Below, piece after piece: positions 4,960 through 56,307 of a stretch of 64,000 bases of DNA. Source of the DNA: Candidatus Ancaeobacter aquaticus. GTDB taxonomy: Bacteria > Auribacterota > Ancaeobacteria > Ancaeobacterales > Ancaeobacteraceae. Under the pieces are notes generated by a model. The model did no database searches. It had not been told where the DNA came from and saw only the letters and a program-made list of their open reading frames with translations. Location: NCBI GenBank assembly GCA_030765405.1, contig JAVCCP010000067.1, positions 97,051-161,050 on the forward strand, given 5' to 3'. The translations under genes and the position numbers were made by a program. The stretch's first letter is position 1, and each line of letters starts with the position of its first letter.

Positions 4960-5316
4960 ATGTCAAGAGCAACCAATAACCCCGCGTCACGGCGCAGGAG
5001 AAAAAAAGTATTAAAACAAGCCAAGGGCTTTGAAGGTTCAAGAGGAGTTCTCTACAGAACAGCTTCTAACGCTGTTATGAAGAAACTTACCTATCAATAT
5101 CGAGATAGAAAGGTTCGTAAAAGAGAAATGCGCGGTTTATGGATTATTAGAATTAATGCTGCGTGCAGAATTAATGATATTTCATACAGTAAATTTATCA
5201 ATGGATTAAAGAAATCAAGCATTGAAATAGATCGTAAAATATTAGCTGATCTTGCTGTTAAAAATGAAGTTGTATTTGGTAAACTCGTTGAAGAAGTTAA
5301 GGCGAGTGCCGCATAA
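4960..5316 (+). CDS. rplT: 50S ribosomal protein L20
   Basis: [29 protein letters not shown]... is canonical L20. Confidence 0.9.
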
Positions 5317-9036: not shown

Positions 9037-9460
9037 CGTATAAGGTGTTTATCAGTGAAAGATATAGTGCTATTTAAAATCTATGAACGAAATACAGTTA
9101 TTCGAGAACTATGTGTATATGTAATATCTGTTAGTGTGAAGTTGTTTGAGTTAGTAAATAATAAAAATGCCGGTATCTTCCGAGATAATAATCTTAGGAA
9201 GGTAACGGTCTGTTCAAAGATTTTAAATGCATTCAATAAAGGGAATTATTACTCTTTAGCCAATAATTATAAAATATGCCCTGCTTTTGCGCGTATACGG
9301 CAATAAATCTTTCACCAACGCCTATATATTAGGAGCTCAATATCTAATCGAATACTGCATTGTCTGGAAACAGAATAGCGGGAAGCGGTTGTGAGAGCAC
9401 CTACCTGGATAACAGGTATAAAGATTTATGCCAGTGACGGCTTAAGCGGGGTTTTTTTTA

Positions 9461-24513: not shown

Positions 24514-24892
24514 ACACCGTATTATTCCACAAAAAAAGTCCCCGTAAATGCCGTCTCTGGGAAGTCTTGTGAGTCGATCGGTTAACGTGGATCCTTGTCA
24601 AATTATTAAATATCTAATAATCCGAACACCAGTCTCCCATAAAAATTTGTTGGCTCACTAACACTAACCAAAATAACGAACACAACAGGGACATATCTTT
24701 CCTTTCAGCTTACATCTACAGTATAGTGGATGTACTGAAATTTGTCAATAGTAAATAGGAAAAATCTGTAATGGGTCAGTAACGAGGGGGACTAAGAGAG
24801 AAAGAATTAATACCATTTGAAATGTCTCAGTAATTGAAGGTGGATACATATCTCCATGTTTGATATTGTAATAGTTATATAGTTATGAGAAC

Positions 24893-24917
24893 ATAAATAT
24901 GTACTGTACATATTTAT
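24893..24917. promoter_or_regulatory. 25-nt perfect palindrome ATAAATATGTAC-T-GTACATATTTAT ending 4 nt before the yjbQ RBS. Candidate operator.
   Basis: The 12-bp arms are exact reverse complements. It sits between a putative promoter (TTGATA at 24860) and AGGAGG at 24920. Confidence 0.5.
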
Positions 24918-24929
24918 ATAGGAGGTTTT

Positions 24930-47750: not shown

Positions 47751-50003
47751 ATGAACGAAGTGCATTTTAATTTAATCGCAAAAGAAATGAAACTCGATCC
47801 AAAACGTGTTCTTGCCGCAGTGTTGCTTCTTGACGGTGGTGCTACGGTACCCTTTATTGCACGATATAGAAAAGAATTAACAGATACTCTTGATGAGGTA
47901 CAAATTACTGATATACGCGATAGGATCAATCAGCTGCGTGATCTCGATAAACGACGTGATGCGATTATTAAGTCTCTTGAAGAAAGAAAACTGCTTACTG
48001 AAACACTCAAGAAGAAGGTAATGGCTGCAGAATCTCTTACCGTACTAGAAGATATATACCTGCCGTATCGACCAAAAAAACGTACCAAAGCAACAGTGGC
48101 AAAAGAAAAGGGTCTGGAACCACTGGCAAAATTGATTTTTGAACAAACAGATGTTGATCTTATCGCGGCTACAAAAAAATATGTTAATAAGAAAAAAGGC
48201 GTGGAAGGCAGTGAAGATGCACTTGCAGGTGCTCGTGATATTGTTGCCGAATGGATGAATGAAGATCAGGGTATACGTGCAAAGATGAGAGAGCTGTTTG
48301 CGGCTGAAGGATTGATTAGGTCAAAAGTCTGTAAAGGTAAAGAAAAAGACGGCATTAAGTATAAAGACTATTATGAATGGGAAGAAAAAATAGCTACCGC
48401 GCCTTCACACCGTATTCTTGCTATTCGAAGAGGTGAAAGTGAAGGGTTTTTAATGGCACGCATCACTCCGCTTGAAGAAGATGCTGTTTCATTGATGGAT
48501 CAATATTTTGTTAAAAATAGTACTGAGTCAGCTCAGCAGGTAAAACTTGCAGCACATGACGGTTACAAGAGATTATTATCTGTAGGTATGGAAACAGAAG
48601 TGCGGCTATCATCAAAGAAACGTGCTGATGAAGAGGCTATAACCGTATTTGTTGAAAATTTAAGACAGCTTCTTTTAGCATCTCCTCTTGGAGAGAAAAA
48701 TGTACTTGCTATTGATCCCGGTTTTAGAACAGGGTGTAAAGTTGTGGCTATTAATAAACAAGGGAAATTTCTTTTTACTGAAGTGATATATCCTCATGGA
48801 TCAGAATTTAGTGCCTCAGAAGCAACTGAAGCAGTAGTGAGTATGTGTAAAAAATATGAAATAGAAGCAATTGCGGTAGGTAACGGTACTGCGGGTAGAG
48901 AGACAGAAGCATTTGTTAGAGATATTAAGGCGCTAAACAAAATACCTGTGATACTAGTCAATGAAAGCGGAGCATCTATTTATTCTGCGTCTGCAGTTGC
49001 CCGTGAAGAATTTCCTGATCAGGATCTTACGGTACGTGGGGCTGTGTCTATTGGCAGGCGGCTCATGGATCCTTTATCAGAACTTGTTAAGATCGATGCA
49101 AAATCGATTGGTGTCGGTCAATACCAGCACGATGTAGACCAGAATGCGTTAAAAAATAGTCTTGATGATGTTGTTGTTAGCTGTGTAAATGCGGTAGGTG
49201 TTGAAGTAAATACATCAAGCAAACAGCTTCTGACCTATGTATCCGGTGTTGGACCAAAGTTAGCGCAATTAATTATAGAATATCGAAATGAAAATGGTCC
49301 TTTTACAACAAGAAAAGAACTGCTCAAAGTGTCGACACTTGGACCAAAAGTATTTGAACAGGCAGCAGGTTTTTTGCGTATACGTGGCGCAAAGAATAAA
49401 CTTGATTGTAGTGCGGTACACCCTGAAAGCTATCATGTAGTTGAGGCTATGGCTAAAGATCTGGGTAGTACAGTAACTGATATTATATCTGACAGCTCAC
49501 TTCAAAATAAGATAGATCTGAAGAAATATGTTACTGATACAGTGGGGTTACCGACTTTGCAGGACATTGTAAAAGAATTAGCGAAGCCGGGAAGAGATCC
49601 CCGCAAAGAATTTGAAGAGATAAAATTCCAGGATGGTGTAACAACAATGGATGATCTTAAAGTGGGGATGAAACTCACCGGAGTAATAACCAATATTACT
49701 GCATTTGGAGCATTTGTTGATATAGGCGTCCATCAGGACGGATTAGTCCATATCAGCCAAATGTCAGACGGTTTTGTGAAGAGTCCCGCTGATGTAGTAA
49801 AAGTCCAACAAAAGGTTACCGTAACCGTAATGGAAATTGATAAAGACCGAAAACGCATCGCTCTATCTATGAAGACCAAACTCGAGAAAGATTTTTCTCT
49901 CAAAAAAGACCATCCTAAAAAGGCGAGCCCATCGCAAAAGAGTGATTCATCTATGAGTGACTTTGGAAAAAAACTGATGGAAGCAGCTTTAAAGTCACAA
50001 TAA
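47751..50003 (+). CDS. tex: Transcription accessory protein Tex (HTH, YqgF, HhH and S1 domains)
   Basis: 750 aa, colinear with Tex. YqgF-like (LAIDPGFRTGCKV), HhH, and C-terminal S1 (GMKLTGVITNITAFGAFVDIG). Confidence 0.9.
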   Translation: MNEVHFNLIAKEMKLDPKRVLAAVLLLDGGATVPFIARYRKELTDTLDEVQITDIRDRINQLRDLDKRRDAIIKSLEERKLLTETLKKKVMAAESLTVLEDIYLPYRPKKRTKATVAKEKGLEPLAKLIFEQTDVDLIAATKKYVNKKKGVEGSEDALAGARDIVAEWMNEDQGIRAKMRELFAAEGLIRSKVCKGKEKDGIKYKDYYEWEEKIATAPSHRILAIRRGESEGFLMARITPLEEDAVSLMDQYFVKNSTESAQQVKLAAHDGYKRLLSVGMETEVRLSSKKRADEEAITVFVENLRQLLLASPLGEKNVLAIDPGFRTGCKVVAINKQGKFLFTEVIYPHGSEFSASEATEAVVSMCKKYEIEAIAVGNGTAGRETEAFVRDIKALNKIPVILVNESGASIYSASAVAREEFPDQDLTVRGAVSIGRRLMDPLSELVKIDAKSIGVGQYQHDVDQNALKNSLDDVVVSCVNAVGVEVNTSSKQLLTYVSGVGPKLAQLIIEYRNENGPFTTRKELLKVSTLGPKVFEQAAGFLRIRGAKNKLDCSAVHPESYHVVEAMAKDLGSTVTDIISDSSLQNKIDLKKYVTDTVGLPTLQDIVKELAKPGRDPRKEFEEIKFQDGVTTMDDLKVGMKLTGVITNITAFGAFVDIGVHQDGLVHISQMSDGFVKSPADVVKVQQKVTVTVMEIDKDRKRIALSMKTKLEKDFSLKKDHPKKASPSQKSDSSMSDFGKKLMEAALKSQ

Positions 50004-50081
50004 TTGTTATTACTCATATTTATAAGGTGCGCCTTTTTTTTGTTTGCAACACATATGAATTAAGTTATAATTTAGGATGTT

Positions 50082-50970
50082 ATGAAGAAAAAAAGACATA
50101 AAAGCACTAAGTCAAGCGAGTTTCTGAGCGAGGAAATGGAATGGCTTTATCTTACACCTGCCCAGAGAATGCATGAGACAACAAAGTTATGGCAATTATT
50201 TATTGCTATGCGAGGGAACCTTGATCCTGAACCCGATCCTCAAAGTCCTTTCTATTTTCAAAAAAAATAAAGTCAAAGGCCTTTTAATTGGCGGCCAGGC
50301 ATGCATTATTTACGGTGCAGCTGAATTTAGCCGTGATTCTGATTTTGTTGTACTTTGTAAAGAAGATAATTTACAGAGAATACGCATTGCATTAAAGGAA
50401 TTGAAAGCTAAGATTATTTATGTCCCCCCATTAGAAATTGAATATTTAGAGCGTGGTCATGCCTGCCATTTTAGGTGCGTTGCCAGAGATGTACAGGGTT
50501 TACGGGTGGACGTAATTTCTAAACTCAGAGGTTGTGAACCGTTTGATGAATTATGGAAGCGAAGGAAGAGGATAATTTTGACAAGAACCAATTCTGTAGA
50601 TGTAATTGGACTTAAAGATCTTGTCCAGTGTAAAAAAACTCAGCGGGATAAAGATTGGTTAATGCTTAAACGGCTGGTTGAAAATGACATTATTATAAAC
50701 AAAGATAAGTGTCCATCCGATGATAAAATAAGATGGTGGCTTTTTGAATCCCGAATACCCGAAACCCTTATTAAGTTGACAGAGAAGTATCCTAAAATTG
50801 TAAAAAATTGCATATCTGATAGACCGTCTTTAATCTCAGCCATAAAAAAAGATTTACAAAAACTTAACGTGCAACTTCAAGAAGAAGAACGTGTAGAACG
50901 AGAGAAAGATATAGAGTATTGGACTCCCTTGAAAAAGGAACTGGAATTATTACGCAGGAAATTAAGATAG
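50082..50970 (+). pseudogene. Minimal nucleotidyltransferase-fold protein (GG...DSD motif) split by a +1 frameshift at an A8 homopolymer (50260-50267)
   Basis: ORF1 (50082-50270) ends at TAA directly after A8. The +1 frame continues FKKNKVKGLLIGGQACIIYGAAEFSRDSDFVV..., an NTase motif. The two pieces are colinear. Confidence 0.6.
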
Positions 50971-51142
50971 TTTATAGATTATATTAATAATTGGAATGCA
51001 CGAAGTATAGTGAAAAGCATCCCAAGCCGGTTTAAGGGGTATTATTTTTATGAGAGACCTCTTTCCCTTGGACTTACAGTGGTCCTGAAAGCGGAATAGA
51101 GGGAAAAGGCAATAAAGGGAGTTGAGCCCTTATTCACTCTAA

Positions 51143-51217
51143 AACCTTATTAAGTTGACAGAGAAGTATCCTGAAATATGAGAAAAAACTGCATATCTGA
51201 TAGATCGCTCTTTATTT
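51143..51217. repeat. Roughly 85%-identical copy of a 75-bp internal segment of the nucleotidyltransferase gene (original at 50762-50834), lying in the downstream intergenic region
   Basis: Original: AAACCCTTATTAAGTTGACAGAGAAGTATCCTAAAATTGTAAAAAATTGCATATCTGATAGACCGTCTTTAATC. Copy: AACCTTATTAAGTTGACAGAGAAGTATCCTGAAATATGAGAAAAAACTGCATATCTGATAGATCGCTCTTTATTT. Confidence 0.7.
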
Positions 51218-51308
51218 ATACAAAAATCAACAGTGTTGCACTGTAATTATTACGATTTGTAAGTGCTTTATATATAGTGATATATAATTATTTACCCCCC
51301 CCCAGCCC

Positions 51309-51337
51309 TTGACAAACCTTTTATTATCAGGTATAGT
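51309..51337 (+). promoter_or_regulatory. Near-consensus sigma70 promoter (TTGACA-17-TATAGT), immediately preceded by a C9 homopolymer at 51295-51303
   Basis: -35 TTGACA at 51309-51314, 17-nt spacer, -10 TATAGT at 51332-51337. The predicted TSS is about 51344. Confidence 0.55.
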
Positions 51338-51343
51338 TCATTT

Positions 51344-51409
51344 ATGAAACGAAAAAAGAAGAGGTCTGTACATAAACGGTATCTGAATAACAGAAAGAGT
51401 GAATTATGA
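51344..51409 (+). CDS. 21-codon highly basic upstream ORF (MKRKKKRSVHKRYLNNRKSEL). Apparently leaderless. Its TGA overlaps the ATG of the giant gene (ATGA).
   Basis: ATG at 51344 is 7 nt after the -10. It is in frame through TGA at 51407-51409. The giant gene ATG is at 51406. Confidence 0.4.
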   Translation: MKRKKKRSVHKRYLNNRKSEL

Positions 51410-54400
51410 AAGCATATTCTATCTCAATGTATCGGATGACACCCTTGATGAAGGTTATTAGTCTTGTTGTAGCATTTATTTTTATTTTTACTTCTACTAC
51501 ATTTGCTATTCCTCGCACAATGTTGGATGTAACCCAGTCCAAAGGGGTGCAATCTGTTTCAAAAGAAGCGGAGCTAACCTATCACATTAATCCGGCAAAA
51601 TTTCTTGTGCCTGAAAATTTCGGTATGGTTACCGAACGGTTCATATCATCAGGAACAAAAAATGCAAAGAAACTCATTATCCAGATACAGGATTCTCATT
51701 GCAATTATGAAGCGCAAAAGAATATATCGAAAATGATTCAGATAATGGCTACGGATAAATCAACAGCCGGGGCACTGAAAATGATTTCAGTAGAAGGATC
51801 GCAAGGTGTCGCAAATTTTGATTATGAGCGTTCTTTCCCTAACAGGGAAATCAGAAGCCAAACAAGCGATTATTTTATGAAAATAGGCTGGCTTACCGGA
51901 CCGGAATTGTATGAGATAGATTCAAAAGATAAGCCGCTACTTTTTTTTGGAGCGGAAGATAAAGATCTATACGAGAAAAATCTAGATTATTTCTTGAAGA
52001 GCAAAAAGGATATAGCGCGTGAACATGCATTTATAGATAAGGTATTGAGTGTAATAGCTGTTTTGAAAAGAAAAATATTTTCTAAGGCAATGCTTAATCT
52101 CGCACAGAAACGTCAAGAATGGGATGGTGGTATTCTACAGTTTACGGATTATTGCGGCTATATAGATAATCTAGCCTTAAAACACGGATTCGGGGAAAAA
52201 GGCGCAAAATATTTTAGTGATAAGAAAAAATATCCAAATTTCACTGCTGTTATGGAAAGTATTGATATTGAAAACAAAATAAATCCTAAAAAAATACAAT
52301 CTGAAAGAGAGGCGATTGTTAGTCATCTTCAAAAAAAGATGGTCAAGGAAGAACTTTCAGAGCTTGTCAAACAATCATTACACTTGCGTATAGGTAAAAT
52401 CACTTCAGATATGTTTTATAATTATTTAAATGAGGTGGTAATAAATAAAAAAATTGATATGAAAAAATATCCTAATTTAAAAGGATATATGCAAATAGTA
52501 AAACTGAACAGCGTATTAGATGCAGGAAAACTGTTTGGCGAAGTTGACAGGATAGAAAATGCAATAAAGAACAAAATGTTCAAGAATAGGGAAGAGAAAG
52601 AACTAGACCTGATGATAAAACAGGTAAATATAATGAAGAATCTTCTTAACTTGAGAATGTCGCGACGTGATCTTTCTTTCTATGACAATAATAAGAAAGA
52701 TATGACAGCTGATAAATTGATAAGAAAAGTAGGCAAACTGGCTAAAAAAACCGGTATAAGCAGTGATCTTTCCGGCTCGATTGCATGGCTAAAGGCAAAC
52801 AAAAATATAGATGTATCGGTATGTGAAGAATTTTATAAAGCGGCTTTAGCAAGAGATAAAGTGCTTGTTGAAAATACGATTAAAGAGATGGGTAGGACGA
52901 AAGCAAATGCGGTAGCAGTAGTGAGCGGAGGTTTTCATACGCAGGGTATGAAAGAACTATTTAAGGGTAAAGGGTATTCATATGTGGTGGTTACTCCCAG
53001 AATGACTAAAGCGTATAATGATAAAATATATCTTAGCCGAATGCTGAATAAGCAGACTGAATTTGACAAAATATTTGGTGCAACAGGCACGAGGCTTTCC
53101 GCATGGACAATGAGAGATAAGTTGATATTTAAGAAATCATGGGCTACCGAATTAGCGCTTATGGCAGAAAAGTTAGGTGATTTTATCGCATTCAGGCAGT
53201 GGATTTTTATGAATAAAACAGATCTCGGCATTGATATCGTTGAAGATAAAGATGGTTTAAAGATTGTTGATCAAAGTAACGCAAAACAGGTATTGGTGAG
53301 AGAGGGTAAAGATGGTGCTCCAGAAATAACAGAAGTGAGTACGATGTCTGCCAAAATTTCTGAAGAATCAGGAGTAGACAAAGGAGCAGGACATCGAGAC
53401 ATCACGGTGGCAGAAGCCGAGAGACTTTCTGATCGCATGAAAAGCCAATTGGGTTATTTTGTTGATAAGCTTCTGGAAGAATTAGCATCAACTGAATTTG
53501 ATAATATGAAAAGAGATGCTCTGAGTATTAAAGCTCTCATTGCAGAGAATGGGAATCTTGAGGATATTAAAAAAGCGGTGAGTAAATTGCGATTATCAGA
53601 GAGCGAAGTTTATAAGCAATTGCAGGAAGAGGGCAAAGATATAGAAGAAGAGGCGTGGGTTTTTGATTGGATGGATTTCACGAAATATGTCGTTAAGAAT
53701 AATTTAGAGGCTGAAGAGGAAGAAATTGTTGTAGTAGCTGCAGCAGCTGAAGCACGTGAAGTGATAAACCAGACAGACGGTGATGATGAACTTGTCAAAG
53801 GTTCCATGCTCGCCAAAGCGCCTGAGGTTAAGGTACACGATCACTGGGAAGAGATGAATTTTATTACGGCAGGTAATAAGAAGTCTGATGTGACAGAGCG
53901 TGTAAGAGCAATCAGTGCGCTTGGCGAAATGAAAACACCTTTGACTATTAAATCGGAAGTCATAGTAAAAAAGTTACAGGATCTGGCAGTGGATAAGGGA
54001 GAGCCAAATGAGGTGCAGCAGGCTGCAATACATGCGTTGATGGCGCAAGACGAGTCAAAAGCTATCGCTTTTATGGGGGAACACTCGCTTATTCTTGTTA
54101 TGGATCAGACAGACGGTGATGATGAACTTGTCAAAGGTCCCATGCTCGCCAAAGCGCCTGTTAGAATACCTGCAGAGGCAATGGATCAGACTGACGGTGA
54201 TGATGAGAAGAAGGTGGAGCCGCGATCGCACGATCACTGGGAAGCGATGAATATTCTTACGGCCGGCGACAAGAAGTCTGATGTGACAAAGCGTGTGGAA
54301 GCGATCAGGACGCTTGGCATGATGAAAGCTCCGTCGACTTTTAAGGTGGAAGACATAGTGAAACAACTGCAGGATATGGCGATGGACAAGGGAGAGCCAG

Positions 54401-56307
54401 TCGAGATACAGCAGGCGGCGCTCGCCGCGTTTATGGAGCTGAAAGGAGAACTTCCCGCGATGATTGAGGGGACGCCGTCGATGTTTGCCAAAGTGGCTGA
54501 GAAAACAGCACGTATAAAAGATATAGAAACGATTACTAATGAGATTCATGGCATTCCGGGTATGATAGATGAGTTCGATTTGAAGGGAAGAGAAGGGATG
54601 CCGACTGGCTTCGACCTGATTAAAAGATCGCAAGACGCTGATGAGCTGATATCGGCGAGGAGTGAACAAGAATATAAAGAAAGTCGCAAAAAGATAACCG
54701 ATTGGTTGGATGAGATTAACAAGAAGATAGGGGTTGAAGCAAAAAATGTCATGCAAGAGAAAAAGGGAAAAGTGTTGGATGTTGTGTTGAAGGAATATGC
54801 CGGAAAGAGTTTTAAAAGAAATATAACTGGGGGTATCCCTCAAGGGATGACAGCGCTGGTGCAGGAGATTCAGCGGCGCGGAGAATTTCGTCTATTAACG
54901 GAACAGGATATTCAGGAAGTGTTGGAAAAGAATGTAATCGCTAATGTTCTTGCTAATCCGGCTGAGGGTAATTTCACAGTTAAGGTAATGATGAAAGAAG
55001 CCAAAGCGTCTGAAGTTACAAGACCAGGAGTTGGATCTACTGAAGGTTATGTGAACGAAGCGATATTGAATGCATATAATAGTTATGCAGAAAATCCTGA
55101 TGGCGCAGTAGAACTAATATTAAATGCATTGAGTAATATGGAGGAAGATGAGTATCTTGTGAATCTGGTAACAGCGATTGATATATTGAGTGGCGTTAAT
55201 CGCCCTAATTTCAATTCTTTAATCGATTATTTATTAGCTAAAAAAGACAGTACCGATCATAGTGGTTTAAAAGATGAGATTAAGCCGATAGTAGATGAAA
55301 TACTTGCTGCTGAGGAGGAGTTGTTGTATGATAAACTTGCGGGGAAGCTTAATGGACTGAAATTAACAGAAGGTTCAGATGCAGAAAAGGCGCGTGATAT
55401 TTTAGTAAGTGTCATAAAGACAGGTGATTTGGCTGTTATCAGGGCAACAATCTCTCGTGCTGTACTCGATATTCCCCGTGATGTGTTTCTTAATGATGTC
55501 AAGACAAACGTAGAAGATATGTTGAGTCCGGGGTTTGTTTCAAGCAGTTTAGGTGTTATGTATTATTCATTGATAGGTTTAAATGAGGCAATGCCGTCAG
55601 AGGAGTATTTTGGGGCTGAATGGAAAGTGATAAGCGAAACTGTTAAAGCCAACATTAATACCACGGCAGTTGCAGATAGCGCTCTACTAAATAAGGAAAA
55701 CATTGATAAAAAAGAGATGTTGTTCCATCATGTTGAAAAAGCTACTGATCAGGTACAGCTTAAGATGCAGTTAAAAGAACACGTTGCGGCAGCGGTACAG
55801 GCAGTATTGCAAGGGCTTGATAAACGTGTTGTTGTTGCTGTAGATTATGCTGATTGGGATCAGGGAGTGTTCGATCAGGTCAAAGAAGAGGTCTTTAAAG
55901 AAAAGAAACTTATATCTGAGGAACAGAAGAAAAAGTTTAAAGAAATTATGGAGGATCACATAGTTATAGGAAAAGAAACGGATACTACGGATACTGTTGT
56001 GAGTGAAGCAAGAGATAAATTAGATGAGCTAAAAGCTTACACGCTTGTATCAATAGATATCCCTGCAGCACTATTTGGGAAATATGAAGATATGATTACA
56101 TTGGAAAATCTCGCTATATTCCTCTTAACATCTAATGGCAAGATAAATGTCGTTGATCTTGATCTTGTTAAAGCGAAGGCTATGGGTCTTAAAGATGTGG
56201 TAGCTGCAATAGAAAGTGACAGTTTGTTGCCAATATTGGATGATGGTGCGACGATACGGACAAATGCTGTTATAAACGCGTATCAGGCACTTGGATTCCA
56301 GGCATAA
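51406..56307 (+). CDS. Giant (1633 aa) signal-anchored protein: N-terminal TM segment, Tiki/TraB/GumN/ChaN-superfamily-like domain, acidic linker, HEAT (PBS-lyase-type) repeats, long alpha-helical C-terminal region. Function unknown.
   Basis: N-terminal hydrophobic segment (LMKVISLVVAFIFIFTSTTFA). ...KKLIIQIQDSHCNYEAQ... and ...AVAVVSGGFHTQGMKELFKGKGYSYVVV... resemble the two GxxH-type motifs of the ChaN/TraB/GumN family (C-terminal consensus vAvGaaHl.Ge.Gl..lL...GY.V). Repeats HDHWEEMNFITAGNKKSDVTERVRAISALGEMK / HDHWEAMNILTAGDKKSDVTKRVEAIRTLGMMK look like HEAT repeats. AAAGAG SD lies 7 nt upstream. Family assignments are from memory. Confidence 0.8.
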   Translation: MKAYSISMYRMTPLMKVISLVVAFIFIFTSTTFAIPRTMLDVTQSKGVQSVSKEAELTYHINPAKFLVPENFGMVTERFISSGTKNAKKLIIQIQDSHCNYEAQKNISKMIQIMATDKSTAGALKMISVEGSQGVANFDYERSFPNREIRSQTSDYFMKIGWLTGPELYEIDSKDKPLLFFGAEDKDLYEKNLDYFLKSKKDIAREHAFIDKVLSVIAVLKRKIFSKAMLNLAQKRQEWDGGILQFTDYCGYIDNLALKHGFGEKGAKYFSDKKKYPNFTAVMESIDIENKINPKKIQSEREAIVSHLQKKMVKEELSELVKQSLHLRIGKITSDMFYNYLNEVVINKKIDMKKYPNLKGYMQIVKLNSVLDAGKLFGEVDRIENAIKNKMFKNREEKELDLMIKQVNIMKNLLNLRMSRRDLSFYDNNKKDMTADKLIRKVGKLAKKTGISSDLSGSIAWLKANKNIDVSVCEEFYKAALARDKVLVENTIKEMGRTKANAVAVVSGGFHTQGMKELFKGKGYSYVVVTPRMTKAYNDKIYLSRMLNKQTEFDKIFGATGTRLSAWTMRDKLIFKKSWATELALMAEKLGDFIAFRQWIFMNKTDLGIDIVEDKDGLKIVDQSNAKQVLVREGKDGAPEITEVSTMSAKISEESGVDKGAGHRDITVAEAERLSDRMKSQLGYFVDKLLEELASTEFDNMKRDALSIKALIAENGNLEDIKKAVSKLRLSESEVYKQLQEEGKDIEEEAWVFDWMDFTKYVVKNNLEAEEEEIVVVAAAAEAREVINQTDGDDELVKGSMLAKAPEVKVHDHWEEMNFITAGNKKSDVTERVRAISALGEMKTPLTIKSEVIVKKLQDLAVDKGEPNEVQQAAIHALMAQDESKAIAFMGEHSLILVMDQTDGDDELVKGPMLAKAPVRIPAEAMDQTDGDDEKKVEPRSHDHWEAMNILTAGDKKSDVTKRVEAIRTLGMMKAPSTFKVEDIVKQLQDMAMDKGEPVEIQQAALAAFMELKGELPAMIEGTPSMFAKVAEKTARIKDIETITNEIHGIPGMIDEFDLKGREGMPTGFDLIKRSQDADELISARSEQEYKESRKKITDWLDEINKKIGVEAKNVMQEKKGKVLDVVLKEYAGKSFKRNITGGIPQGMTALVQEIQRRGEFRLLTEQDIQEVLEKNVIANVLANPAEGNFTVKVMMKEAKASEVTRPGVGSTEGYVNEAILNAYNSYAENPDGAVELILNALSNMEEDEYLVNLVTAIDILSGVNRPNFNSLIDYLLAKKDSTDHSGLKDEIKPIVDEILAAEEELLYDKLAGKLNGLKLTEGSDAEKARDILVSVIKTGDLAVIRATISRAVLDIPRDVFLNDVKTNVEDMLSPGFVSSSLGVMYYSLIGLNEAMPSEEYFGAEWKVISETVKANINTTAVADSALLNKENIDKKEMLFHHVEKATDQVQLKMQLKEHVAAAVQAVLQGLDKRVVVAVDYADWDQGVFDQVKEEVFKEKKLISEEQKKKFKEIMEDHIVIGKETDTTDTVVSEARDKLDELKAYTLVSIDIPAALFGKYEDMITLENLAIFLLTSNGKINVVDLDLVKAKAMGLKDVVAAIESDSLLPILDDGATIRTNAVINAYQALGFQA

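What the first reader, a model, noticed from the sequence alone, without database searches (positions are those of the whole stretch)
51295..51409. Near-consensus promoter, a C9 homopolymer and a leaderless basic 21-codon uORF coupled through ATGA to the giant gene
**Promoter and uORF.** TTGACA-17-TATAGT is the best sigma70 match in the window. The predicted TSS coincides with the ATG of the small ORF MKRKKKRSVHKRYLNNRKSEL, so the uORF would be leaderless. Its TGA overlaps the giant gene's ATG, which is classic termination-reinitiation coupling. Such a leader peptide could gate translation of the 1633-aa protein.

**C9 tract.** A C9 run sits 5 nt upstream of the -35. That is statistically odd in a 37% GC genome, and it resembles the slipped-strand phase-variation tracts of surface-protein promoters.
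Basis: partly seen in the sequence, partly recalled or inferred. Interest (0 to 1): 0.6.

Follow-up and report, generated by a model that had tools for sequence, protein, structure and literature searches.

The report
Conserved strong promoter of giant gene
This is the strong, evolutionarily conserved housekeeping-type promoter and short leader of a giant membrane-anchored protein gene in an uncultured Antarctic-lake bacterium; the small upstream reading frame and the run of nine Cs are really there but are peculiar to this one strain and show no sign of being regulatory devices.

Summary

**Promoter: real and conserved.**
- Ten of 12 homologous loci carry the same extended motif, CCCC-TTGACA-AA...TAnAAT, upstream of the homologous gene.
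- These are the only 11-12/12 sigma-70 matches in 94 kb of those loci.
- A matrix built from them scores window site 51309 at 27 bits; the next best site in the window scores 4.

**21-codon uORF: not conserved.**
- Homologous leaders have no uORF or unrelated ones, no more often than shuffles predict.
- The TGA stop follows automatically from the family's ATG-AAA start.
- A frame spanning the whole leader arises in 0.3-0.7% of shuffles.
- It may still be translated if transcription starts exactly at A51344, and the main gene's Shine-Dalgarno is weak. Coupling is therefore possible but unsupported.

**C9: rare but weak as a phase-variation candidate.**
- It is the only C/G run of 8 or more in 64 kb (expected 0.07).
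- It lies upstream of the -35, not in the spacer.
- It is absent from homologues.
- It is identical in five assemblies of the same clone.

Verdict: an ordinary leadered mRNA driven by an unusually well-conserved promoter. Interest is low to moderate.

The parts
51268..51294 (+). A/T-rich block (TATATATAGTGATATATAATTATTTA) upstream of the C-run; a possible UP-like element
   Evidence: In homologous promoters the columns -17..-10 before the -35 hexamer are mostly A/T. In the window this block ends at -15 because C9 sits between it and the core promoter. The role is inferred, not tested.
51295..51303 (+). C9 homopolymer, -14 to -6 relative to the -35 hexamer (about -49 to -41 relative to the predicted start site)
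   Evidence: Seen. It is the only C/G run of 8 or more in the window. It is identical in L001-L004. No equivalent long run exists in homologous loci.
51305..51316 (+). Extended -35 element GCCC-TTGACA-AA (hexamer 51309-51314)
   Evidence: Across the 11 family promoters (the window's included), the four positions before the hexamer are C in 7, 8, 8 and 10 of 11, TTGACA is invariant, and the next two bases are A in 11/11 and 9/11. A matrix built from the 10 other loci gives 22.7 bits for this half.
51332..51337 (+). -10 hexamer TATAGT, 17-nt spacer, no TG extension
   Evidence: Homologues have TAnAAT with a 16-17 nt spacer.
51344..51344 (+). Predicted transcription start (A, 7th nucleotide after the -10, preceded by T)
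   Evidence: Geometry only. Not testable with these tools.
51344..51409 (+). 21-codon ORF MKRKKKRSVHKRYLNNRKSEL, co-extensive with the 62-nt, 48% A leader; the stop TGA overlaps the main ATG
   Evidence: It is not conserved. The leader has no significant fold (z = -1.25) and no Rfam match.
51394..51402 (+). Weak Shine-Dalgarno AAAGAGTGA of the giant gene
   Evidence: Duplex with the anti-SD is -3.1 kcal/mol, rank 27 of 33 genes. It aligns with AAAGAGGTGA of L012/L014/L010 minus one G.
51406..56307 (+). 1633-aa gene (MDP8263465.1, hypothetical protein): N-terminal hydrophobic anchor, a roughly 570-aa conserved domain, and a HEAT-containing variable C-terminal part

Best explanation
The segment is the core promoter and 5' leader of a giant, membrane-anchored protein gene of Candidatus Ancaeobacter aquaticus.

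**Mechanism.**
- RNA polymerase with the housekeeping sigma factor binds an extended -35 (CCC-TTGACA-AA) and a TATAGT -10 separated by 17 nt.
- Transcription starts at or next to A51344 and produces a 62-nt, A-rich, unstructured leader.
- Ribosomes start at ATG 51406 using a weak Shine-Dalgarno (AAAGAGTGA) and the open leader.

**Status of each part.**
- The promoter is under selection. The same motif sits 59-126 nt upstream of homologous genes in ten other genomes with 37-59% GC, which points to strong, probably constitutive expression.
- The 21-codon frame and the C9 run are lineage-specific features of this strain's leader and promoter flank.
- The frame exists because an ATG happens to lie at the start site, the purine-rich leader has no stop in that frame, and the family's ATG-AAA start supplies the TGA.
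- If the start site is exactly A51344, the frame is probably translated at some level, and terminating ribosomes could re-initiate at the overlapping ATG. This is not a conserved or required control device.
- C9 is most simply a local expansion of the C-rich flank that all these promoters have upstream of the -35.

**Shown versus inferred.**
- Shown: the sequence features, their conservation or lack of it, and the chance statistics.
- Inferred: the sigma factor, the start site, promoter strength and the translation behaviour.
For: **Promoter.**
- It matches 11/12.
- In 12 homologous loci (94 kb, both strands), all ten 11-12/12 matches lie upstream of the family gene on its strand.
- Flank conservation fits CCCC-TTGACA-AA.
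- The matrix from the other loci gives 27.3 bits at 51309 against 4.2 for the next site in the window.
- tRNA and 6S RNA promoters in the window score only 8-9/12.

**Leadered mRNA.**
- All homologues have predicted leaders of 24-92 nt with a Shine-Dalgarno.
- The gene start agrees with homologous N-termini.

**uORF incidental.**
- There is no sequence, length, frame or position conservation.
- Family-wide counts of uORFs of 9 or more codons are 5 observed against 2.8 expected (P = 0.10). For 12 or more codons they are 4 against 2.2 (P = 0.13).
- The main gene starts ATGAAA in 7 of the 10 homologous loci that carry the promoter, so the TGA comes free.
- No structure or known RNA family is present.

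**C9.**
- It is outside the spacer.
- It is invariant in five assemblies.
- Homologues have only C3-C5 at the flank.
Against: - A frame running from the exact predicted +1 to the ATGA is uncommon by chance: 0.3-0.7% of shuffles.
- The peptide is more basic than stop-free shuffles: 48% K+R against 29 +/- 7%, P about 0.011.
- The main gene's Shine-Dalgarno is among the weakest in the window, and appears to have lost one G relative to homologues. A gene that relies on coupling would look like this.
- C9 is rare (expected 0.07 per window). It sits where homologues have A/T, so its length could matter for promoter geometry.
- The homologues are only 29-55% identical and lie in different genomic contexts. 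They are not true orthologues, so non-conservation is a weak refutation.
- The five identical assemblies are one clone and give consensus sequences, which hide minority tract lengths.
Confidence: 0.62

Rival explanations
1. Functional leaderless uORF. Transcription starts at A51344 and 70S ribosomes initiate on the 5'-terminal AUG. They translate the basic 21-residue peptide through the weak Shine-Dalgarno, terminate at UGA, and re-initiate at the overlapping AUG. Giant-gene translation would then depend on, or be tuned by, uORF translation. This compensates for the decayed Shine-Dalgarno in this lineage.
For: - The ATG is at the optimal +1 position with T(-1)A(+1).
- The ATGA overlap is present.
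- The Shine-Dalgarno is weak: -3.1 kcal/mol, rank 27/33, one G short of the family's AAAGAGGTGA.
- A whole-leader ORF arises in only 0.3-0.7% of shuffles.
- Basicity exceeds shuffles, P about 0.01.
- Precedents exist. 5'-terminal AUG uORFs on leadered E. coli mRNAs bind 70S ribosomes and some affect the downstream gene (PMC4965119). Mycobacteria have leaderless regulatory short ORFs (bioRxiv 10.1101/834739).
Against: - No homologous locus has a start-site ATG with a comparable ORF.
- uORF frequency in the family is not above chance.
- Many genes in this window have equally weak or weaker Shine-Dalgarno sequences without any uORF, for example 57886, 30171 and 44002. A weak Shine-Dalgarno therefore does not imply coupling.
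- There are no regulatory codon runs tied to alternative structures.
- The start site is only predicted.
Confidence: 0.2
2. Tunable promoter. The C9 run is a slippage-prone spacer between an A/T-rich UP-like block (51268-51294) and the -35. Gain or loss of Cs would shift and rotate the upstream element relative to the core promoter and change expression of the envelope-anchored giant protein (phase or volume-control variation).
For: - It is the only C/G run of 8 or more in 64 kb.
- Nine is within the length range that slips in known systems. In Bordetella fimX, C7 against C8 gives about a fourfold transcript difference (PMC1891110).
- C9 occupies -14..-6, where homologues have an A/T block at -17..-10. 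Tract length therefore sets the distance of that block from the -35.
- The product has an N-terminal membrane anchor.
Against: - The tract is not in the -35/-10 spacer, where most promoter tracts act.
- Its length is identical in five assemblies from different samples.
- No long tract occurs in any homologous promoter.
- The organism is a free-living anoxic-water fermenter, not a host-associated pathogen (PMC9324843).
- No other long C/G tracts in the window suggest a contingency-locus lifestyle.
- A few C9/G9 runs per genome are expected by chance.
Confidence: 0.1
3. The conserved CCCC-TTGACA-AA motif is not simply a strong housekeeping promoter. It would be the target of a dedicated regulator or alternative sigma factor that co-evolves with this gene family.
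For: - The motif extends beyond the canonical hexamers and is conserved across genomes of 37-59% GC.
- It is unique in the 64-kb window.
- It is absent from other genes in 94 kb of related loci.
Against: - The hexamers and spacing are the textbook housekeeping consensus.
- No regulator or sigma gene is consistently adjacent; the neighbours differ in every locus.
- Only a small part of each genome was available, so uniqueness is not established.
Confidence: 0.08

Closest known systems
Canonical sigma-70 (housekeeping) promoters with near-consensus -35/-10 and an upstream flank element
   Same: TTGACA-17-TATAGT, at a position 60-125 nt upstream of the coding start, with an A/T-rich block further upstream.
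   Different: The conserved C-rich tetranucleotide immediately 5' of the -35, and the AA after it, are not part of the E. coli consensus. The promoter is conserved together with one gene family across distantly related uncultured bacteria.
5'-terminal AUG uORFs on leadered E. coli mRNAs (Beck, Fleming and Janssen 2016, PMC4965119) and leaderless regulatory short ORFs of mycobacteria (bioRxiv 10.1101/834739)
   Same: An AUG at the predicted 5' end of an mRNA that also carries a downstream Shine-Dalgarno-led gene, giving a short upstream ORF.
   Different: There is no start-site or translation evidence here. The peptide has no regulatory codon run such as polycysteine, and it is not conserved in homologous loci.
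Translational coupling through overlapping stop/start (AUGA) in operons (review PMC12548453)
   Same: The UGA of the upstream frame overlaps the AUG of the downstream gene, and the downstream Shine-Dalgarno lies inside the upstream frame.
   Different: The upstream frame is a 21-codon unconserved ORF rather than a gene. The overlap arises automatically from the ATG-AAA start shared by the family.
Promoter homopolymer phase variation: the Bordetella fim2/fim3/fimX 'C-stretch' (PMC1891110); Neisseria opc promoter tract (cited in PMC6389960); Neisseria porA (from general knowledge, not checked in a paper here)
   Same: A poly-C run in the promoter region of a gene for an envelope-associated protein, with a length in the slippage-prone range.
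   Different: From general knowledge, in those systems the tract lies within the promoter between the recognition elements, or between an activator site and the -10, and it is polymorphic among isolates. Here it lies 5 nt upstream of an intact -35, is invariant in the available assemblies, and is absent from homologues.

Membership tests
Sigma-70-type promoter | -35 and -10 hexamers close to TTGACA/TATAAT with a 17 +/- 1 nt spacer, oriented towards a gene | tested here: met
   6/6 and 5/6 matches with a 17-nt spacer, 97 nt upstream of ATG 51406.
Sigma-70-type promoter | Conservation of the elements at equivalent positions upstream of homologous genes | tested here: met
   10 of 12 homologous loci have 11-12/12 matches 59-126 nt upstream. 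These are the only such matches in 94 kb. The family matrix gives 27.3 bits at 51309.
Sigma-70-type promoter | Experimentally mapped transcription start downstream of the -10 | not testable with these tools
   No transcriptome data were available.
Leaderless mRNA / 5'-terminal AUG uORF | Transcription start coincides with the A of the start codon | not testable with these tools
   Geometry is compatible: the A is the 7th nt after the -10 and is preceded by T. The start site is only predicted.
Leaderless mRNA / 5'-terminal AUG uORF | The short ORF is conserved in related loci | tested here: not met
   No homologous leader has a comparable start-site ORF. L016 has ATG-TAA at +6 and L007 has an ATG at +3 after the -10. 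The peptides are unrelated.
Termination-reinitiation coupling | Overlapping or adjacent stop and start codons | tested here: met
   ATGA at 51406-51409. The overlap is automatic given the ATGAAA start.
Termination-reinitiation coupling | The downstream gene lacks an adequate ribosome-binding site of its own and depends on upstream translation | tested here: inconclusive
   The Shine-Dalgarno duplex is -3.1 kcal/mol, rank 27 of 33. Six other genes in the window are weaker and have no uORF. Dependence was not testable.
Leader-peptide attenuation | Alternative hairpins or a terminator in the leader, coupled to regulatory codons in the peptide | tested here: not met
   The leader fold has z = -1.25. 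There is no terminator-like site between 51344 and 51450 on the + strand and no Rfam match.
Repeat-mediated transcriptional phase variation | Homopolymer long enough to slip (about 7-8 or more) | tested here: met
   C9 at 51295-51303.
Repeat-mediated transcriptional phase variation | The tract sits where its length changes promoter geometry (the -35/-10 spacer, or between an activator or UP site and the core) | tested here: inconclusive
   It is not in the spacer. It lies between an A/T-rich block and the -35, and the block's function is unproven.
Repeat-mediated transcriptional phase variation | Tract length is polymorphic within or between populations | tested here: not met
   C9 appears in the window and in L001-L004, from at least four other samples. 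All are one clone and are consensus assemblies, so the test is weak.

The most novel reading that the evidence does not exclude
In this lineage the giant gene's Shine-Dalgarno has decayed, and expression has been re-wired in two ways. First, a leaderless, highly basic 21-residue uORF delivers ribosomes to the overlapping AUG. Second, a slippage-prone C9 spacer between an UP-like block and a family-specific extended -35 tunes transcription. Together these would give a free-living Auribacterota bacterium stochastic control over an abundant envelope-anchored TIKI/TraB/ChaN-like giant protein.
Probability: 0.07. Interest if true: 0.55.

Novelty: new member of a known kind. Interest (0 to 1): 0.3.

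Why it matters
Nothing is known experimentally about transcription signals in Auribacterota, an uncultured PVC-group phylum. A promoter conserved with one gene family across eleven genomes gives a first sequence-level picture of what a strong promoter looks like there: CCCC-TTGACA-AA, 16-17 nt, TAnAAT. It also marks this family of giant membrane-anchored proteins as probably highly expressed.

The uORF and C-tract ideas would be modest additions to well-known mechanisms if true. As they stand they are unsupported, so the finding should not be carried forward as a regulatory novelty.

Tried and rejected
- **Known RNA element in the leader.** There was no Rfam match in 50000-52000 at E up to 1 and no significant fold. 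Rejected.
- **Conserved leader sequence across the family.** Alignment shows only the Shine-Dalgarno in common. Rejected.
- **uORF as an N-terminal extension or frameshifted true start.** Homologous N-termini match the start at 51406, and the uORF is in another frame. Rejected.
- **Closer orthologues.**
  - The protein search found nothing between 55% and 100% identity.
  - The genome and metagenome scans gave at best 55%.
  - A near-identical JGI contig (L025) ends inside the upstream 265-aa gene, before the promoter. It adds no population information.
- **Family-wide excess of uORFs.** Not significant.
- **Sequence-based function for the giant protein.** Pfam gave only HEAT_2. The PDB sequence profile gave nothing. 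Only the fold comparison was informative.
- **Remote family members.** L022, L024, L011 and L006 (22-28% identity, or operon-internal) lack the consensus promoter. The motif is therefore limited to the closer clade.

Full report
**1. What is in the sequence**

Reading 50700-51700 and listing ORFs confirms every element at the stated coordinates:
- C9 is at 51295-51303, followed by AGCCC.
- The -35 TTGACA is at 51309-51314, then a 17-nt spacer, then the -10 TATAGT at 51332-51337.
- An ATG sits at 51344. Its A is the 7th base after the -10 and follows a T, which is the preferred geometry for a start site.
- The ATG opens a 21-codon frame, MKRKKKRSVHKRYLNNRKSEL.
- The frame's TGA (51407-51409) overlaps the ATG (51406) of a 1633-aa ORF ending at 56307.

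How unusual each element is:
- The promoter scan ranks this site first in 45-64 kb at 11/12.
- Over the whole window it ties with three other 11/12 sites.
- C9 is the only C or G run of 8 or more in 64 kb. C9 on either strand is expected 0.07 times per window, and 6 of 100 shuffles contain one.

**2. Source and gene**

- Exact-sequence look-ups identify the window as Candidatus Ancaeobacter aquaticus. This is Auribacterota in the PVC group, a free-living fermenter described from anoxic water of Ace Lake, Antarctica (PMC9324843).
- The giant protein is MDP8263465.1, 'hypothetical protein'.
- It has an N-terminal hydrophobic anchor, a conserved domain of about 570 aa, and a variable C-terminal part with HEAT repeats.
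- Homologous N-termini (MK..., then ...LVIALVFTxTSTxYGVP) confirm ATG 51406 as the start.
- An AlphaFold model of the N-terminal domain has mean pLDDT 70.
- The family-invariant IQDSHCNYE and GGFHT motifs could be active-site motifs. That reading rests on resemblance from memory and was not tested.

**3. The promoter is real and conserved**

I fetched homologous loci by exact protein look-up and by pattern scans of genomes and metagenomes. The homologues are 29-55% identical over the N-terminal domain, lie in different genomic contexts, and come from genomes of 37-59% GC.

- Ten of 12 loci have an 11/12 or 12/12 sigma-70 match 59-126 nt upstream of the family gene and on its strand.
- These ten are the only matches of that quality on either strand of the 94 kb examined.
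- Anchored on the -35, the conserved motif is longer than the hexamer. The four preceding bases are C in 7, 8, 8 and 10 of 11 promoters. TTGACA is invariant. The next two bases are A in 11 and 9 of 11. Positions -17 to -10 are mostly A/T.
- A weight matrix from the ten non-window promoters scores 27.3 bits at 51309. The next best site on either strand of the window scores 4.2.
- The window's tRNA and 6S RNA genes have only 8-9/12 promoters.
- More remote relatives (22-28% identity), and one copy that sits directly behind another giant gene, lack the motif.

The promoter is therefore a selected trait of this gene clade. The simplest reading is strong, probably constitutive, housekeeping-sigma transcription. 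That reading is an inference.

**4. The uORF**

All homologues with the promoter have predicted leaders of 24-92 nt ending in a good Shine-Dalgarno. Nothing else in the leaders aligns.

Evidence that the uORF is incidental:
- With L019's start taken at its upstream in-frame ATG, as in the search, four leaders have no uORF.
- The remaining six have uORFs of 1, 5-10, 9, 12, 13 and 72 codons. These differ in sequence, frame, position and stop site.
- Counts of uORFs of 9 or more codons are 5 of 11 observed against 2.8 expected (P = 0.10). For 12 or more codons they are 4 against 2.2 (P = 0.13).
- The main gene starts ATGAAA in 7 of the 10 homologous loci with the promoter. Any open frame in the right register therefore ends in ATGA. 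One homologue, L014, also has an unrelated 13-codon uORF ending that way.
- For the window's leader, 15% of shuffles give some ATG frame ending at the ATGA. Only 0.3-0.7% give one that covers the whole leader.
- With the ATG fixed at +1, 12% of shuffles remain open.
- The leader has no significant structure (z = -1.25), no terminator and no Rfam match. An attenuator is therefore excluded.

Three observations keep a coupling role possible:
- The ATG is exactly at the predicted +1.
- The giant gene's Shine-Dalgarno is weak, at -3.1 kcal/mol and rank 27 of 33. It looks like the family's AAAGAGGTGA with one G missing.
- The peptide is more basic than stop-free shuffles, 48% against 29 +/- 7% K+R (P about 0.011).

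Against this, six other genes in the window have even weaker Shine-Dalgarno sequences and no uORF.

5'-terminal AUGs on leadered E. coli mRNAs do bind 70S ribosomes and are translated (PMC4965119). If the start site is as predicted, some translation of the frame is likely. What is missing is evidence that it matters.

**5. The C9 run**

- It lies 5 nt upstream of an intact -35. Length changes would therefore not alter the -35/-10 spacing, which from general knowledge is how most promoter tracts work.
- Five independent assemblies (the window plus L001-L004, from at least four other samples) are identical through the whole intergenic region, C9 included.
- Those assemblies differ by one substitution and one 1-bp deletion over 8.6-10.9 kb. 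They are a single clone, and consensus assemblies hide minority lengths, so this test is weak.
- No homologous promoter has a long run. They have C3-C5 at the conserved C-rich flank.
- C9 occupies -14 to -6, partly where homologues have A/T. It looks like an expansion of the flank that pushes the A/T block (51268-51294) about 5 bp further away.
- That geometry offers a conceivable tuning mechanism, in the manner of the Bordetella fim C-stretch, where fimX C7 against C8 changes transcript level about fourfold (PMC1891110).
- Nothing observed here supports it, and the organism's free-living lifestyle gives a low prior.

**6. Verdict**

- The promoter interpretation is supported and strengthened.
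- The leader-peptide and phase-variation interpretations are not supported. They cannot be excluded without start-site mapping, read-level tract lengths or reporters.
- The feature is a new member of a known kind. Its mildly interesting aspect is the family-linked, extended consensus promoter in an uncultured phylum.

Noticed in passing
window 51136-51254 (compare 50757-50954): The intergenic region upstream of the promoter holds a decayed, frameshifted copy of about 75-120 nt of the 3' part of the preceding 265-aa gene, about 88% identical with indels. This suggests a past duplication or insertion next to the giant gene. A JGI contig of a near-identical strain (L025) ends inside the 265-aa gene just before this repeat.
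   Followed up: partly
[not shown]
   Followed up: partly
window about 56007 (L004 7617-7686): One sample's assembly (ERZ27315831) has a 1-bp deletion in the giant gene within TGTTGTGAGTGAAGC. It splits the gene into 1538-aa and 71-aa products. This is either a real variant or an assembly error.
   Followed up: no
window 53770-53824 and 54106-54160 (L001 5365-5419 and 5701-5755): A 55-nt segment is repeated at 98% identity inside the giant gene. It lies in the region that holds duplicated MDQTDGDDELVKG...HDHWE...HEAT-like modules.
   Followed up: no
window 4966-4933 (-) and 24748-24714 (-): Two further 11/12 sigma-70-like sites point along the minus strand, in a window whose genes are almost all on the plus strand. 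One overlaps the start of the gene at 4960. The other lies in the 416-nt gap 24514-24929. No minus-strand gene or Rfam RNA was identified downstream of either.
   Followed up: no
window 9275-9456 (+): 6S RNA (Rfam RF00013, 52.9 bits). tRNA genes are at 1050, 1213, 2140 and 37352. Their promoters score only 8-9/12 against the consensus.
   Followed up: partly
L016 299-310: In one homologous locus the predicted start site coincides with ATG-TAA, a one-codon 'start-stop', rather than a peptide-coding uORF.
   Followed up: no
window 50173-50970 (+): The upstream 265-aa ORF has no Pfam match. Other annotations call it as two overlapping genes of 62 and 249 aa. Its N-terminal GGQACIIYGAAEFSRDSDFVV segment looks by eye like a nucleotidyltransferase motif; this was not tested.
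   Followed up: no
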